NCBI GenBank assembly: GCA_964106645.2
Contig: OZ067050.1
Source: Podarcis pityusensis
Lineage: Eukaryota
Length of the DNA stretch: 64,000 bases
Reading direction: 5' to 3' (one strand)
Part shown: one piece after another, positions 23,387 through 59,300 of the stretch
How the letters are laid out: the number at the start of each line of letters is the position of its first letter
Numbering within the stretch: the stretch's first letter is position 1
Program-made: the position numbers

Positions 23387-26300
23387 ATTATTATTATTAT
23401 TATTTAGATTGGAACCATTTCTAGTCTATATAAAAAGTTATTTTCCCATATGTGAAGATCACAGCAGGGTTTGAAGTGTAAGAAAACAGCAGAATATATG
23501 TACAAACATGTTAGAGAGAATTAAATTAGATAAGACAGAACCTTAAAATGCAATCGTATGTAATCTGAATCATAAACATCGATGTTGGGTAAGCAGGAAG
23601 TCACTAGTTTTGTTGAATTAGAATATAATTGCTGAGCAACAAATGTAACTTTGGATATGGAAAAAAGAACAAAATACTGTTACAAAAAAGAGGCAGACTG
23701 TTGCTTTCCATTCCAATGGAAAAGAAAGATGTTATATCAAGAGCTATACATAGTTCACCAGGGGCTGATTCTTGTATCAAAGGTGCAAGCAGGACAAACA
23801 CACTGAACCATTAACATGAGCCAGGCAAAAGTCAAGGAAAACACATACACCCCAACATTCCTCTGATGAAAATAGGGACTTTTTATCTGAGGACTTTTGG
23901 AGGGTATGCAACGACTGTCAGGTACAGTGGTGTAAGTGTGGGTTAAAATGTTTCCCATTGCTTTACCTTTCTATGGAAAATTCATTGATTCAACTTACGT
24001 ATTATTGTCAATGTACCATAACTGAAATACAATAAAATTCAGATTAAGCAGAACAACAACCATAACAATTCTATACCACCCTTCATCCACGGATCACAGG
24101 GCAGTTTGCAATATAAAAACACAAAAATACATAATACAATAACAGACAAAAACAATAACCCCATTCACTTTAAAAGGCCATAAATTGTTTAATTAGCAAA
24201 GCCCAAAGTCACTTATGATGGTAGCCAGAGACCAAAGCATGTGGAGAGCTGCTGAGCAAATAAGGAAATTTTAACCACTACACCAATTCTCACAATTTGC
24301 AATATAAGCAATATAACCCTTCTAGAACAATTCAGAACACTAAGCTAAATCTATTTAGCTGCTTCAAAGTTTCCTCATAGAATTTCCAGTTTCCTATCAT
24401 TAGTATTATACCACATACAGGATTTTCCTTCACAAAATAAGACTGGAAATGTTTTTCATAGAGGAGTGACGCAAACGCAATAGCTTAGATAGTGCATTTT
24501 TAATCTCTCTATTTCTCATGCTATAGATTACTGGATTCATCAAGGGTGGAACCATGGAATACATCACTGTAAATGCCAAATCCAGATGTAATGAGGCAGG
24601 CTTGAAGAAAGCAAAGTATGAAGTAAATACAAATAGGCAGTATACAATGAGATGGGGAAGGCAAGTTGAGAAAGCCTTTTGCCTTCCTTCAGTTGAGGGG
24701 ATTTTCAGCACCGCAGTGAAAATGTACACATAGGTTATAATGTTGAAGAAAAAGCAGCCAATCCCAAAGACAGCACTTATAGAAATAGCTCCTATTTCCA
24801 CTAGATACAAATCCGTGCAGGCCAGCTTAAGTACTTGTGGGATTTCACAAAAAAATTGATTGACTACATTGGAACAAAAGGGGGATGCAAAGGTTCCTCC
24901 CGTGTGTAACACTCCATAGAAAAAGCTGCCGATCCATACACTGCTAATCATTTGAATATAGGCTTGCCTATTCATCAGCATCCCATACTGTAATGGTTTG
25001 CAAATGGCAACATACCGATCATATGCCATCACTGTGAGAAGAAAGAAGTCAGATCCCACAAAGAAGACAAAGAAGAATAGTTGTGCAACACACCCAGAGT
25101 AGGAAATGTACCTGGTGTTCATGAGGGAATTGAGCATGGACTTGGGAACAATGACTGAAGTTTGTCCCAGGTCCTGCATGGCCAAGTTCATCAGGAAGAA
25201 GTACATGGGGGTGTGCAGGTGGTGGTCAAAGGCTACTGCAGAGATGATGAGAAGATTCCCTGTGACAGTTGCCAAGTACAATACCAGGAATATAATGAAA
25301 TGTAGAATTTGTAGTTCCCGAACATCTGAGAATTCTAGGAGGAGAAATTCTGAGAAAGATGATTGATTATCCATGCTCTGCTTCTTCACATTCATGTTGC
25401 TATGGAAGGAAGCAAAAACCAGCTGTTAAAAGGGGAGCCCATTTTATTTAGGATTGTTATAATTGTTATTATTTTTCATCCACTTTACTGTTGCCAACTG
25501 TAGACCACTGTGTTAAAAAATTATAGCAAATTCATGTAATCCAAGCTACACTTTGCTTTCTAGTGTGAAAGTATCTGAAAATATCCAGAAAATAGATGCA
25601 ACACATGCTGAGGTACTTTGTGTTATGCAAGATTTGTGAACAAAGGTAGATAGTTGCTGGAGAGAGTGACTATCTGTGTAGGAGAGAATATGACAGGGAG
25701 AAAGAAGAAAGGAAGGATGACCAATACATTACTTTCATTGTAAGTGCAAGTGGAAAATATAGAATGGTATCTTACTTTTTTCTTCTTCATATGGTTCTCT
25801 CCAGTATGCTTCTCCAGTGAAATTAAATGGCTGCATATTTCTCCACCCATACCTGAAATTTTATAGCAATCCTCCAGCAGTTGGATTTATGATGACAATA
25901 AACATGAATCAACATGGGGAAGACACTTATTAATAATTCTCCTGTCTTTCTAGAGATTTACTCTCACAGGAATTCAACACACCTCAGCATTAGGGCTGTA
26001 TAGAAACAATACTGCATTTTGTTTAGTTTTGCTAATTTATTTGTTTTGGTTATCATAATAATATCAAAACTATGAAGGGAACTAATCATTCCACAACAGC
26101 TATATCAGATATACCCATCTGTATGAAATTCTTCTGACATGGATAGCTCTAACTATCAACGTTAATAATGAGTGTAATGAGTCCAGGCAGCTGGCTTGAT
26201 AACACAGGACACCAGAGTAATTAACTTGAAGATTTATTGCAAACAAAGCAATTATCCTCAGGGCCCTCTCGCCGAGCGTCCATTAGTACACCCAAGTTGA

Positions 26301-56300: not shown

Positions 56301-59300
56301 GCTGACTTGTCGAGAAGGGACAAAGATATTGTCAAGTTGGAGTCTCCCCGAGAGAAAGGAAGGAAATTAAGAATAAGATCAACAGAAGACAAAGTAAAGT
56401 ACAGGTATAAACATGAAGAAGACCTGCGGAAGGGACATGGAAAAGACTTAAGAGCCTCGGATAGAAGGTCACTAGGTTGATGGACTAGATGGATGGGATA
56501 GAAAGGACTGACAAAACCCGAGACCAGGAAGAAGAAACGATGGATGAAGATTGGAAGAAAGTTTTAAAAATTTATTTAGAAATCATCGTAAAATTAATGA
56601 GTATTAGAAAAATGTTGGAATGAAATTATTTGGCTTTAGCAGAAATGTTAAAAAGAATTATGTAAGAATATGTTATGGTTAAAAGAATTAGGTATAAATA
56701 AGACTTAAGTTTTAAGCTTTAGGGTTTTTATGGTAAGATAAGGTTAAAATAGATTAAGGTAATTTAATGACAGAATATTGTGAAAGATGGAAAAGATTTG
56801 CTGAGATAATTAATAACTAGAATACAAAAAAGGAGGTGTGAGGAGGTTGATGAAATAAGTTAATGAAAGTTAAGGATTTGGGAATATTTGATTTGTTTTT
56901 AATTTTTTTGTTTATTTTTGCTTTTTGATTTTGATGTATTGTGTGTTTTGTTTTTTCTCTTTGACTTTGGTTTTTATTGATTTGTATTGTTTAATTGCTA
57001 TTTTTGTCTACCTTTTTCTTTCTTTTTCTTTTTCTCTTGTTTCTTCCTTCTTTTTTCTCTGTAATTTTAAATTCTCAATAAATATCATTTTTTTATAAAA
57101 AAAACATGGTTGGGTGATTGGATAAAATTGGATAACACCGATTTACTAGTTTTAGAAGGGTTTGGAAACAGACACTCGCGGGACTGAAATAAACCGCATA
57201 ATGTTTATTAAAAATCATTCATTTTGGATTTAAGAATATTGAACAAATATATTACAACAATTGAAGGATGTATATTTAATTAAATTTTGAATAGTATTAT
57301 TCCATAGTATTAAGTACACAGAATGTAAACATGACAAATGCGTAAATATACAGAAAATATAGAGAAACCAGAAGAGGGAAGGAGGGAAGTACAAACTTGT
57401 TTAGAGTTAAAGTATTAAGGTTAAAAGGAATAAGGTATTTATTATGTATTATGATGGTGAAATTTGTAAAATCTCTAAAACCAATAAAGATCATTAAAAA
57501 AAAGTTTGCAGAGGGCTGCAGGGCAAAGACGGATATTTTAACCACTACACCAATTTTCACAATTTGCAATATAAGCAATGTACCCCTTCTAGATCAATTG
57601 AGAAAACAAAGCTAAATCTATTCAGCTGCTTCAAAGTTTCCTCATAGAATTTCAGGTTTTCTATAATTAGTGTTATACTCTATACAGATATTATCCTTCA
57701 CAAAATAAGACTGGAAAAGTTTTTCATAGAGGAGTGAGGCAAACGCAGTAGCTTTGATAGAGCGTTTTTAATCTCCTTATTTCTCATGCTATAGATTACT
57801 GGATTCATCAAGGGTGGAACCATGGAATACATCACTGTAAATGCCAAATCTAGATATGGTGAGGTATTAGAGGTAGGCTTGAAGTACGCAAAGTATCCAG
57901 TAAATACAAATAGGGCATAAACTATGAGATGGGGAAGGCAGGTTGAGAAAGCCTTTCGCCTTCCTTCAGTTGAGGGGATTTTCAGCACGGCATTGAAGAT
58001 GTACACGTAGGTTATGATGATGAAGATAAAACAGCCAACTCCAATGACACCGCTTAACACAAGAACTCCGATTTCCATTAGATACAAATCAGTGCAGGCC
58101 AGCTTAAGTAACTGCGGGATTTCACAAAAAAATTGATTGACTTCATTGGAACAAAAGGGGGATGCAAAGGTACCTCCAGTGTGTAACACTCCATAGAAAA
58201 AGCTGCTGATCCATACACTGCTAATCATTTGAATATAGGCTTGCCTATTCATCAGCATCCCATACTGCAATGGTTTGCAAATGGCAACATACCGATCATA
58301 TGCCATGACTGTGAGAAGAAAGAAATCAGATGCCATAAATGACATGAACAATAGTACTTGTGCAACACACCCAGAGTAGGAAATGTACCTGGTATTCATG
58401 AGGGAATTGAGCATGGATTTGGGATTAATGACTGAAACTTGTCCCAGGTCCTGCATGGCCAAGTTCAGCAGGAAGAAGTACATGGGGGTGTGCAGGTGGT
58501 GGTCAAAGGCTACTGCAGAGATGATGAGAAGATTCCCTGTGACAGTTGCCAAGTACAATACCAGGAATATAACGGAATGTAGAATTTGCAGTTCCCGAAC
58601 TTCTGAGAATTCTAGGAGGAGAAATTCTGAAAAAGATGATTGATTATCCATGCTCTGCTTCTTCACATTCATGTTGCTGTGGAAGGAAGCAGAAATACCG
58701 CTGTTGAGACGGTTACCCCTCTCATTTAAGTTTTTGTTGCTGATGATGATGTTTAGTTATTGTAGCAGGCAGCAACGTTCTGAAGGAGTCAGTAATTTTT
58801 TTTTTGGGGGGGGGAGGGGAATGAGCCCGAAAATGATGATGATGGCTGTGGATACTAGTGCTATTATTATTAGCAACGCAATTATGTTTGCAAGGTCATT
58901 ATTGTTTGTTCATACCACTGATTCACTATTTCCCTTAAGAGCTTGACTATTTAAAGGAGTTAGGTGCCAAATATCCCACTTTCTGCTGACGGAATCTTTT
59001 GAATGTGTATCAGATACATGCACAATAACGTTGTCAAATTCCAGTCAATACTAGCCTGATATTCTGGCCCCCCTAATATAATGCCATAGCTCAATTTTAG
59101 AAGGCAAAAGGCCATTTCATAATTTATTAGAAACCATGATGACAGGGTGAATCTGACATGAGCTTACTCATCATAGTCAATAGTCATCATCTTTAACATC
59201 TGGCTAATTACTAAGGAGGGCTTTTACTATTCCTTTGTTTCTCTTGATTTCTCATCAGGGACAGATGCTTGGTAAAACTACAGTAAGCTTCTAATTTAAT

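What the first reader, a model, noticed from the sequence alone, without database searches (positions are those of the whole stretch)
24430..58700. The amplified OR appears to be a chimera: promoter of gene A, coding body of gene B
Each array copy has the intron and promoter of gene A (CCATAG acceptor, ~0.38 kb intron). Its CDS markers (HSVIF, LLNL, INPK, LLFMSFMAS, SNEV, KPTSNTSPY) and 3' flank match gene B, whose own intron is ~1.9 kb. The switch point is around the start codon and acceptor. Inference: unequal crossover between adjacent paralogs A and B created a hybrid gene that was then amplified. This would be a snapshot of OR birth with a promoter swap.
[Added by the scan's program, not by the reader: the finding's places include an assembly gap (unread letters, written N; its length is only estimated) at 40059 to 40258. 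Whether the letters on both sides are continuous or in frame is not known: test that first.]
Basis: partly seen in the sequence, partly recalled or inferred. Interest (0 to 1): 0.65.

Follow-up and report, generated by a model that had tools for sequence, protein, structure and literature searches.

The report
Recombinant lizard odorant receptor, tandemly amplified
In a lizard olfactory-receptor cluster, unequal recombination between two neighbouring genes made a mosaic receptor gene that was then copied at least four times head to tail; the mechanism is well known, but this example is unusually clean.

Summary
The window is not human. It is a lacertid lizard (Podarcis-like) cluster of OR14-like olfactory receptor genes, all on the minus strand. 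Between gene B (57698-58672) and gene A (24430-25395) lies a head-to-tail array with a period of about 5.76 kb and four complete, intact copies.

- Each copy has A-type upstream DNA for 4.2 kb (about 99% identical).
- Each copy has B-type coding markers and a B-type 3' flank of 592 bp.
- The first switch lies between -6 (the CCATAG acceptor) and codon 14.

The coding body is not purely B, however. Codons 195-228 (transmembrane helix 5, TM5) are A-type, so there are three switches (A|B|A|B). Segment trees conflict with strong support, and orthologues in other lizards show which parent gave which part.

Once a 2.18-kb retro-insertion with a 20-bp target duplication is removed, B sits exactly one period from the array. 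That is the layout expected of a duplication-side ("anti-Lepore") unequal-crossover product. A short gene conversion and an amplification followed.

"Promoter" and "intron" are inferred from conserved signals only; there is no RNA evidence.

The assembly gap lies in a spacer, and its two flanks are out of register, so the copy number is uncertain. This is a new member of a known kind and of moderate interest.

The parts
24430..25395 (-). Gene A: intact 321-aa OR14-like receptor. It is the downstream parent and the last gene of the array.
   Evidence: ORF. Pfam 7tm_4, E 1.2e-42. 98% identical to Podarcis muralis P0005, also 321 aa.
25400..25775 (-). Putative 376-bp 5'-UTR intron of A (donor GTAAGA at 25775, acceptor CCATAG ending at 25400). 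The same feature lies in each copy, e.g. 31167-31546 in copy 1. Inferred only.
   Evidence: The acceptor tract is conserved in five paralogues whose similarity stops 20-45 bp upstream of the ATG. No RNA data.
25490..26172 (-). Conserved upstream block of A (76% identical to B 60304-60978) with TATAAAA at 25865, 90 bp before the candidate donor. Putative promoter and non-coding exon 1.
25431..29595 (-). Spacer upstream of A (A-type). It recurs in every array unit at 31198-35359, 36962-40058 (cut by the gap), 40259-43375, 44978-49136 and 50739-54920.
   Evidence: A-unit against array units: 0.77-1.0% substitutions. Array units against each other: 0-0.26%.
29596..30187 (-). B-type 3' flank of array copy 1. 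It recurs at 35360-35951, 43376-43967 and 49137-49728.
   Evidence: Matches B 57103-57697 with 15 events in 592 bp. A's own 3' flank is alignable only for about 196 bp (24234-24429) and is about 10% different.
30188..31162 (-). Mosaic receptor gene, copy 1 (324 aa, intact).
35952..36926 (-). Mosaic receptor gene, copy 2. Its CDS is identical to copy 1.
43968..44942 (-). Mosaic receptor gene, copy 3 of those visible. Its CDS is identical to copy 1.
49729..50703 (-). Mosaic receptor gene, copy 4 of those visible. It has one private non-synonymous change (cds 89, I30N).
31121..31169 (-). Switch 1 (A to B) in copy 1, between site -6 and site +42. A and B are identical over the 46 bp in between, which include the ATG.
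30479..30581 (-). A-type patch in copy 1: cds 582-684, codons 195-228, covering TM5. It is bounded by switch 2 (cds 563-581) and switch 3 (cds 685-715). The same patch lies at 36243-36345, 44259-44361 and 50020-50122.
   Evidence: 20 sites match A. B differs at 21 of 104 positions (cds 582-685; one of the 21, cds 685, is a change private to the copies). The segment tree groups copies with A at 99/97. The patch is identical in all 4 copies. The A-type signature is shared with A orthologues P0005, P0125, P0006 and P0124.
40059..40258 (.). Assembly gap (200 N) inside a spacer. Its flanks are out of register.
54921..57102 (+). 2,182-bp retro-type insertion between the array and B's 3' flank. It is flanked by a 20-bp direct repeat (54901-54920 and 57103-57122), has AATAAA at 57077 and a short A tail at its 3' end.
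   Evidence: All four internal unit junctions show the empty site. No Pfam or Atlas match for its 218-aa ORF.
57103..57697 (-). 3' flank of gene B.
57698..58672 (-). Gene B: intact 324-aa OR14-like receptor. It is the upstream parent.
   Evidence: Two residues different from P. muralis P0135.
58677..60578 (-). Putative 1,902-bp 5'-UTR intron of B (acceptor CCACAG, donor GTAAGA at 60578). It holds about 1.5 kb that A lacks. Inferred only.
60304..60978 (-). B's own upstream conserved block (TATAAAA at 60657). It is absent from the array copies.

Best explanation
**Starting point.** Two old tandem paralogues stood in the order B - spacer - A, in the direction of transcription on the minus strand.

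**Step 1: hybrid formation.** A non-allelic homologous (unequal) crossover paired A with B. It produced the duplication-side product B - spacer - hybrid - spacer - A. The hybrid took A's upstream DNA, which probably includes A's promoter, non-coding exon and 376-bp intron. It took B's coding sequence and B's 3' flank.

**Step 2: the TM5 patch.** A 103-153 bp stretch covering TM5 is A-type. It arose in one of three ways: by a short gene conversion from A; by a crossover at the far side of the patch followed by conversion of the 5' coding part from B; or by patchy repair within the same event. The order cannot be resolved here.

**Step 3: amplification.** The finished mosaic unit (about 5.76 kb) was then amplified by further unequal exchange between units, to at least four copies that are now 99.7-100% identical.

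**Step 4: retro-insertion.** A 2.18-kb retro-insertion entered the spacer next to B, later or at least separately. It never spread to the other units.

**Shown and inferred.**
- Shown: the mosaic, the register of the units, the polarity of each part and the intact ORFs.
- Inferred: crossover rather than conversion as the founding event, promoter function, and expression.

**Likely consequence.** The product is a receptor with a B scaffold and an A-type TM5. It would be offered for singular receptor choice from several A-type promoters, which should raise the share of neurons that express it.
For: 1. **Site map.** Sites -34 to -6 match A. Coding positions (cds) 42-562 match B at 33 of 33 informative sites. 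Positions 582-684 match A at 20 of 22; the other 2 are private to A. From 716 to the end of the 3' flank the sites match B.
2. **Runs test.** There are 13 runs among 124 informative sites. 0 of 100,000 shuffles had so few; the fewest in any shuffle was 29.
3. **Segment trees with C and D as outgroup.** Copies group with B at 100/98, with A at 99/97, and with B at 100/99.
4. **Upstream DNA.** The 4.2 kb upstream is 99% identical to A's. B's upstream is 76% identical in one block and otherwise unalignable.
5. **Register.** ATG-to-ATG spacings are 5767, 5764 and 5761 bp. From B to the nearest copy it is 7969 bp, which equals 5767 + 2182 (insertion) + 20 (target duplication). The insertion has a 20-bp direct repeat, AATAAA and an A tail. 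All four internal unit junctions show the empty site.
6. **The ends are parental.** B keeps its own upstream. A keeps its own CDS and 3' flank.
7. **Polarity from other species.** The A-type coding lineage (321 aa, 3-codon deletion, A-type TM5) is present in P. muralis, P. raffonei, Zootoca and L. agilis. The B-type lineage (324 aa, B-type TM5) is present in the same genera. All 5 Podarcis B-type records have the B-type TM5.
8. **Completed before amplification.** All four copies share all three switches and have an identical patch.
9. **Integrity.** The ORFs are intact, with 7tm_4 E-values of 1e-42 to 1e-45. The best solved relatives are class II ORs at E 2.7e-79.
Against: - A single simple crossover does not explain three switches, so at least one further exchange must be assumed.
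- Divergences are uneven. B's 3' flank differs from the copies by 15 events in 592 bp (2.5%). A's spacer differs from the copies by 36 of 4178 (0.86%; Fisher p = 0.0009). After a single founding event the two values should be equal, unless the A-side spacer was homogenised later.
- Outside the patch, the CDS differs between B and the copies at only 3 of 871 positions, all non-synonymous. This implies later B-to-array exchange or constraint.
- No genome of a sister species could be examined, so the ancestral B - spacer - A state was not observed.
- There is no transcript evidence for the promoter, exon 1 or intron.
- The array holds an assembly gap, and single-base indels cluster near it. Copy number and fine detail of the units next to the gap are therefore unsure.
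Confidence: 0.75

Rival explanations
1. No hybrid-forming crossover took place. The whole A unit was first duplicated in tandem. The extra copy's coding region and 3' flank were then overwritten by two gene-conversion tracts from B (cds about 35-570, and about 700 to the end of the 3' flank). TM5 was left unconverted. Amplification followed.
For: - The mosaic pattern A|B|A|B is what two conversion tracts into an A-type copy would leave.
- Conversion is evidently active here. The CDS of B and the copies differs at only 3 of 871 positions outside the patch, against 2.5% in the flank.
- Concerted evolution is discussed for the avian OR14-like gamma-c genes (PMC2758906, passages).
Against: - The second tract would have to run 592 bp past the stop, through sequence where A and B are not alignable beyond about 196 bp. 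It would also have to end exactly at the old junction between B's flank and the spacer.
- No unit carries A's own 3' flank or the older downstream spacer.
- The exact one-period register of B with the array would be a coincidence.
Confidence: 0.12
2. A is the altered gene. All units, including the last, carried the mosaic or B-type CDS. The last copy's CDS and proximal 3' flank were then replaced by conversion from an A-type donor elsewhere.
For: Within an otherwise 99%-identical unit, A's divergent stretch (cds 42 to about 196 bp past the stop) looks like an island.
Against: - A-type CDS orthologues exist in four lacertid species. In P. muralis, the A-type and a B-type record carry consecutive accession numbers, which hints at neighbouring genes.
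- No second A-type donor is in the window.
- B's own upstream is only 76% like the array's. The array's upstream must therefore come from a gene other than B, and the only candidate is A.
- The A-type TM5 patch in the copies would then need yet another A-type source.
Confidence: 0.05
3. Assembly artefact: the repeated units, or the mosaic itself, were produced by mis-joining reads from A, B or two haplotypes.
For: - There is a scaffold gap inside the array.
- The same 2,047 bp stand on both sides of the gap, with 0 substitutions.
- One-base indels private to the two flanks cluster there.
Against: - The mosaic gene has four changes of its own that neither A nor B has: cds 34, 685, 823 and 928.
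- Units differ from each other at scattered sites (0-0.26%), and one copy has a private coding change.
- Four junctions are identical in structure.
- An artefact could change the copy number but hardly create the hybrid.
Confidence: 0.05

Closest known systems
Human OR8U8/OR8U9 -> OR8U1 fusion receptor by non-allelic homologous recombination (Hasin et al. 2008, PMC2570968; passages read; its Figure S9 was not seen)
   Same: Two adjacent intact OR paralogues recombined inside the single coding exon, within a stretch of sequence identity. This gave an intact chimeric receptor with the promoter side of one gene and the 3' side of the other.
   Different: OR8U1 is the deletion-side product: the two parents are replaced by one fusion gene with one breakpoint. 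Here it is the duplication-side product. Both parents are kept, there are three switches, and the hybrid was amplified to four or more copies.
Haemoglobin anti-Lepore and the CYP11B1/CYP11B2 chimeric gene (recalled from textbooks; not checked in any call)
   Same: These are duplication-side unequal crossovers between tandem paralogues. The hybrid lies between both intact parents, with the 5'/regulatory part from the downstream gene and the 3' part from the upstream gene, in the same order as here. In the CYP11B case the point is a promoter swap.
   Different: They are single hybrids with a single breakpoint and no amplification. They are human disease alleles rather than fixed or reference-genome features.
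Species-specific expansions and concerted evolution of sauropsid OR14-like (gamma-c) receptors (Steiger et al. 2009, PMC2758906, passages; Vandewege et al. 2016, PMC4825420, passages)
   Same: The same receptor family is involved (the best hits are all named OR14-like). Tandem duplication is the source of new genes, and homogenisation within a species is suspected.
   Different: Those papers describe repertoires and trees. In the passages I read they do not describe a resolved hybrid unit with parental genes at both ends.
KIR hybrid genes formed by unequal crossover (PMC2816608; search listing only)
   Same: Copy-number change and hybrid receptor genes arise in a tandem receptor cluster.
   Different: It is an immune receptor family with multi-exon genes, and the breakpoints lie in introns.

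Membership tests
Vertebrate class II olfactory receptor (OR14-like) | Match to the olfactory-receptor profile (Pfam 7tm_4) above its curated cut-off | tested here: met
   A, copy 1 and B score 147-155 bits against a cut-off of 27.
Vertebrate class II olfactory receptor (OR14-like) | Closest named relatives are OR family 14, and the solved relatives are odorant receptors | tested here: met
   118 of the 120 listed hits carry an olfactory-receptor name (116 OR14-like, 87-92% identical for the best lacertid ones); two carry no receptor name. PDB best hits are class II ORs, E 2.7e-79.
Vertebrate class II olfactory receptor (OR14-like) | Single uninterrupted coding exon of about 0.95 kb with the conserved MAYDRY, KAFSTC and NPxIY-type motifs | tested here: met
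   ORFs of 321-324 codons. The motifs are visible in the translations. The motif names are recalled.
Vertebrate class II olfactory receptor (OR14-like) | Expression in olfactory sensory neurons and response to odorants | not testable with these tools
   No transcript or functional data were available.
Duplication-side unequal-crossover hybrid ('anti-Lepore' type) | The hybrid lies between both intact parents. Its 5' part comes from the downstream parent and its 3' part from the upstream parent. | tested here: met
   The order is B, copies, A. The copies have A-type upstream and B-type 3' CDS and flank.
Duplication-side unequal-crossover hybrid ('anti-Lepore' type) | The repeat period equals the original distance between the two parents | tested here: met
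   The distance from B to the nearest copy is 7969 bp, i.e. 5767 + 2182 + 20. The periods are 5761-5767 bp. The empty insertion site is present in all four internal unit junctions.
Duplication-side unequal-crossover hybrid ('anti-Lepore' type) | One breakpoint inside a stretch of identity | tested here: not met
   There are three switches: -5..+41, cds 563-581 and cds 685-715. A second exchange or patchy repair is required.
Duplication-side unequal-crossover hybrid ('anti-Lepore' type) | The ancestral or reciprocal arrangement exists in relatives or other haplotypes | not testable with these tools
   No lizard genome collection was available. The protein records only show that A-type and B-type genes exist in relatives.
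Interlocus gene-conversion tract | A short internal patch matches a nearby paralogue, flanked on both sides by sequence of the other type, with the donor type ancestral in the donor lineage | tested here: met
   The patch is 103-153 bp. It differs from A at 3 positions of 104 and from B at 21 of 104. The A-type signature is in 4 A orthologues and the B-type signature in 7 B-type records.
Tandem amplification by unequal exchange | Head-to-tail units of one orientation, nearly identical, with identical junctions | tested here: met
   Units differ by 0-0.26%.
Tandem amplification by unequal exchange | Copy number verified by reads, or variable between individuals | not testable with these tools
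   There is a gap in the array and no reads were available.

The most novel reading that the evidence does not exclude
The array may be a very recent, lineage-specific and possibly adaptive amplification of a newly made receptor. Its binding pocket combines B's helices with A's TM5. It is driven by several copies of A's promoter, so that copy number directly raises the share of olfactory neurons choosing it. On this reading, sensory sensitivity would be tuned through promoter swap plus dosage, caught before the copies diverge. None of the 5 Podarcis B-type protein records seen has the A-type TM5. All four changes private to the mosaic are non-synonymous.
Probability: 0.2. Interest if true: 0.6.

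Novelty: new member of a known kind. Interest (0 to 1): 0.4.

Why it matters
Olfactory receptor families are said to grow by tandem duplication, unequal crossover and gene conversion. Resolved intermediates, with both parents still flanking the product, are rarely shown.

In this case all the steps can be read from one locus:
- hybrid formation near the start codon;
- a conversion patch covering TM5, a helix that lines the odorant pocket in solved ORs (recalled);
- amplification to four or more identical copies;
- a retro-insertion that marks one spacer as distinct.

The locus offers a natural experiment for two questions:
- Does upstream DNA decide how often and where a receptor is chosen?
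- Does gene copy number scale the number of neurons expressing a receptor?

It also warns annotators that near-identical OR arrays can be collapsed or broken in assemblies.

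Tried and rejected
- **Tandem Repeats Finder.** It found nothing because the period (5.76 kb) exceeds its 500-bp limit. A self-BLAST replaced it.
- **Pfam.** No family matched the two non-receptor ORFs (40528-41133 and 55824-56480).
- **ESM Atlas.** No usable hit for the ORF inside the retro-insertion. Its source remains unknown.
- **Rfam.** No match at gathering thresholds in the whole window.
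- **Exact look-ups.** None of the 6 window proteins looked up is in the protein collection. The species is therefore not one whose annotated proteins are held. The nearest are Podarcis muralis and P. raffonei.
- **Two ages within the B-type parts.** I tried to date the 5' B-type part as younger than the 3' B-type part. A first count gave 0/521 against 18/853. A cleaner count showed the contrast is really CDS against 3' flank, 3/871 against 15/592. Within the CDS it is 0/547 against 2/290, which is not distinguishable. I dropped the claim of two ages within the CDS.
- **Literature searches.** None of the listed papers describes this lizard array or a duplication-side amplified OR hybrid. This holds only for the open library searched.
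- Supplementary files (for example Figure S9 of PMC2570968) could not be seen.
- The same statistic was then computed from the stored alignment.
- **Spliced model.** The coding region is one exon, and only that exon was searched.

Full report
**What the window is.** The window is 64 kb, 40.6% G+C, with one run of 200 N at 40059-40258. It holds ten receptor-like reading frames, all on the minus strand:
- a fragment cut by the window start (3-251);
- a 305-aa gene (7837-8754);
- D (12533-13504);
- C (20156-21148);
- A (24430-25395, 321 aa);
- four 324-aa copies (30188-31162, 35952-36926, 43968-44942, 49729-50703);
- B (57698-58672, 324 aa).

A, copy 1 and B match Pfam 7tm_4 at E 1e-42 to 1e-45. 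The best solved relatives are class II odorant receptors (E 2.7e-79). Of the 120 hits listed, 118 carry an olfactory-receptor name (116 OR14-like) and two carry no receptor name; nearly all come from reptiles and birds. The best are lacertid lizards: Lacerta agilis 92%, Podarcis muralis 89%, Zootoca 87%. A is 98% identical to a P. muralis protein. None of the 6 window proteins looked up is held exactly. The contig is therefore not human. It comes from a lacertid lizard, most likely a Podarcis species other than the two annotated ones.

**The gap, tested first.** A self-comparison shows a head-to-tail array with a period of about 5.76 kb from 24234 to 54920.
- The sequence left of the gap stops at unit phase 4303. 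The sequence right of it starts at phase 2256.
- The same 2,047 bp therefore stand on both sides, with 0 substitutions and 8 indels of one or two bases. Most of these indels are private to one flank and sit in short homopolymers.
- The ATG-to-ATG distance across the gap is 8016 bp, which is neither one nor two periods.
- The flanks are thus not continuous across 200 bp. Either the two contig ends are one stretch written twice, giving four mosaic copies, or at least about 3.7 kb with one more coding copy is missing.
- The gap lies in spacer, 3.1 kb upstream of the nearest ATG. No reading frame crosses it. I did not fill it.

**Checking the observation.**
- The 592 bp after the stop match B's 3' flank, with 15 difference events. 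A's 3' flank is alignable for only about 196 bp and is about 10% different.
- Upstream of the ATG the copies follow A for about 4.2 kb, with 0.77-1.0% substitutions. B is unalignable there except for one 0.68-kb block at 76% identity that lies 1.5 kb farther from its ATG.
- A and the copies read CCATAG four bases before the ATG; B and C read CCACAG.
- Similarity among all five paralogues stops 20-45 bp upstream of the ATG, behind a pyrimidine tract. This fits a splice acceptor there.
- These are sequence signals only. No transcript data were available, so 'promoter' and 'intron' remain inferred.

**The mosaic.** I mapped every site at which A, copy 1 and B differ. Coding positions (cds) are counted from the ATG. 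Four segments appear:
- From -34 to -6 the copy matches A. One site, -19, is private to A.
- From cds 42 to 562 it matches B at 33 of 33 informative sites.
- From cds 582 to 684 it matches A at 20 of 22 sites; the other two are private to A.
- From cds 716 through the 3' flank it matches B.

B and the copy have no difference in cds 35-581, 21 differences in the 104 positions of cds 582-685, 2 in the remaining 290 coding positions, and 15 events in the 592-bp flank. The clustering is far beyond chance: there are 13 runs among 124 informative sites, 0 of 100,000 shuffles had so few, and the fewest in any shuffle was 29. Trees of the three coding segments, with C and D as outgroup, give copies+B (100/98), copies+A (99/97) and copies+B (100/99). 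The gene is recombinant, but with three switches rather than one.

The A-type patch covers codons 195-228. By the usual OR topology this is TM5 (recalled; the alignment to solved ORs is). The patch accounts for 11 of the 14 residues by which the mosaic differs from B.

**Which parent gave what.** Proteins of other lacertids polarise the parts.
- The A type has 321 aa, a three-codon deletion and the TM5 signature SAVFGIGCFIFN. It is found in P. muralis, P. raffonei, Zootoca and L. agilis.
- The B type has 324 aa and the TM5 signature VLVLS.VIG.GCFIFI. It is found in the same genera.
- Both lineages are therefore old. B in the window keeps the ancestral B-type TM5. The copies' TM5 equals the ancestral A type and is identical to P. 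muralis A except for one private change.
- All 5 Podarcis B-type records (three gene models) have the B-type TM5. The finished mosaic is thus not among the annotated proteins of those species.
- B and the copies share two residues (V34, L69) that none of those records has. This points to a duplication after the species split or to later homogenisation.

**Why a crossover and not only conversion.**
- The stretch 54921-57102 between the array and B's 3' flank is an insertion. It is bounded by a 20-bp direct repeat, carries AATAAA at 57077 and ends in a short A tail. All four internal unit junctions show the empty site.
- Without the insertion and its duplicated target, B's ATG lies 5767 bp from the nearest copy's ATG. 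The array periods are 5767, 5764 and 5761 bp.
- B is therefore in register with the array. It keeps its own upstream, and A at the other end keeps its own CDS and 3' flank.
- This layout, B - spacer - [A 5' / B 3']n - spacer - A, is what a duplication-side unequal crossover between A and B predicts, followed by unit-level unequal exchange.
- A pure conversion model would need a tract running 592 bp through sequence where A and B do not align, ending exactly at the old junction. It would also make the register a coincidence.

**What stays open.**
- The order of events is unresolved. One possibility is a crossover in the 46-bp identity around the ATG followed by an A-to-hybrid conversion of 103-153 bp. 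Another is a crossover just after TM5 followed by a B-to-hybrid conversion of the 5' coding part. A third is one event with patchy repair over about 0.7 kb. All four copies share all switches, so the mosaic was complete before amplification.
- Divergences are uneven. The units differ from each other by 0-0.26%, and A's spacer differs from the units by 0.86%. B's 3' flank differs from the units by 2.5% (p = 0.0009), and the B-type CDS by 3 of 871 positions, all non-synonymous.
- I read this unevenness as continued exchange within the array and between the coding regions, with B's flank isolated by the insertion. That reading is inference.
- An earlier idea that the two B-type coding parts have different ages did not hold up.

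**Comparison with what is known.**
- The nearest documented case is the human OR8U8/OR8U9 to OR8U1 fusion by non-allelic homologous recombination inside the coding exon (PMC2570968, passages). That is the deletion-side product with one breakpoint.
- The layout here matches haemoglobin anti-Lepore and the CYP11B1/B2 chimera (recalled, not checked).
- Tandem duplication and suspected concerted evolution of OR14-like genes in sauropsids are in print (PMC4825420 and PMC2758906, passages).
- Six searches of the open library listed no description of this array or of an amplified duplication-side OR hybrid.
- This is a new, unusually legible member of a known kind.

**Limits.** No lizard genome, reads or transcripts could be consulted. 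The coding region is a single exon and only that was searched.

Noticed in passing
54921-57102 (+): A 2,182-bp insertion with a 20-bp target-site duplication, AATAAA at 57077 and a short A tail. It looks like a retro-copy of a polyadenylated RNA. Its 218-aa ORF (55824-56480) has no Pfam or Atlas match, and nothing else in the window resembles it.
   Followed up: partly
38062-39916 and 40311-42171: Single-base indels in short homopolymers, private to one or the other gap flank (for example 40311, 40531, 40931, 41617; 39283, 39510), with no substitutions. They look like consensus errors at contig ends.
   Followed up: partly
38976 / 41228 and 39916 / 42171 (and the same phases in other units): Two poly-G tracts in the spacer vary in length between units: one has 10 or 12 G, the other is 6 bases shorter in the A unit.
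   Followed up: no
58709-60303: B's putative intron carries about 1.5 kb that A and the copies lack. Its nature is unknown. The only other match in the window is 48 bp at 21709-21756.
   Followed up: partly
21149-24233 and 62192-62839: The spacer between A and C holds decayed copies of blocks of the array spacer: 23046-23353 matches 27616-27927 at 86%, and 23472-23884 matches 28542-28954 at 94%. It also holds a copy of a block upstream of B (22316-22955 matches 62192-62839 at 83%). These look like traces of older rounds of duplication of the same kind of unit.
   Followed up: partly
3-251 (-) and 7837-8754 (-): A further receptor gene is cut off by the window start (78% identical to B residues 8-90). 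An intact 305-aa receptor is only 58% identical to B, so it belongs to a different subfamily.
   Followed up: no
50615 (cds 89 of the copy at 49729-50703): This is the only coding difference among the four copies: T to A, I30N.
   Followed up: yes
31129, 30478, 30340, 30235 (copy 1; the same positions in the other copies): All four changes private to the mosaic gene are non-synonymous (S12T, V229L, D275N, R310C). There is no synonymous difference from B outside the patch. The numbers are too few for a test.
   Followed up: partly
Lacerta agilis proteins P0121 and P0122 (cluster of P0002): B-type paralogues of L. agilis carry mixed TM5 signatures (SAVF in P0121; IVIS..CFIFN in P0122). Mosaic TM5 may therefore recur in this subfamily.
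   Followed up: no
32200-33400 (and the same phase in each unit): There is a G+C-richer stretch (48-56%) in the spacer with long stop-free frames on both strands but no family match. It may be an old mobile element.
   Followed up: no
13790-13829 and 62823-62853: A short 3-bp-periodic simple repeat is shared by two spacers.
   Followed up: no
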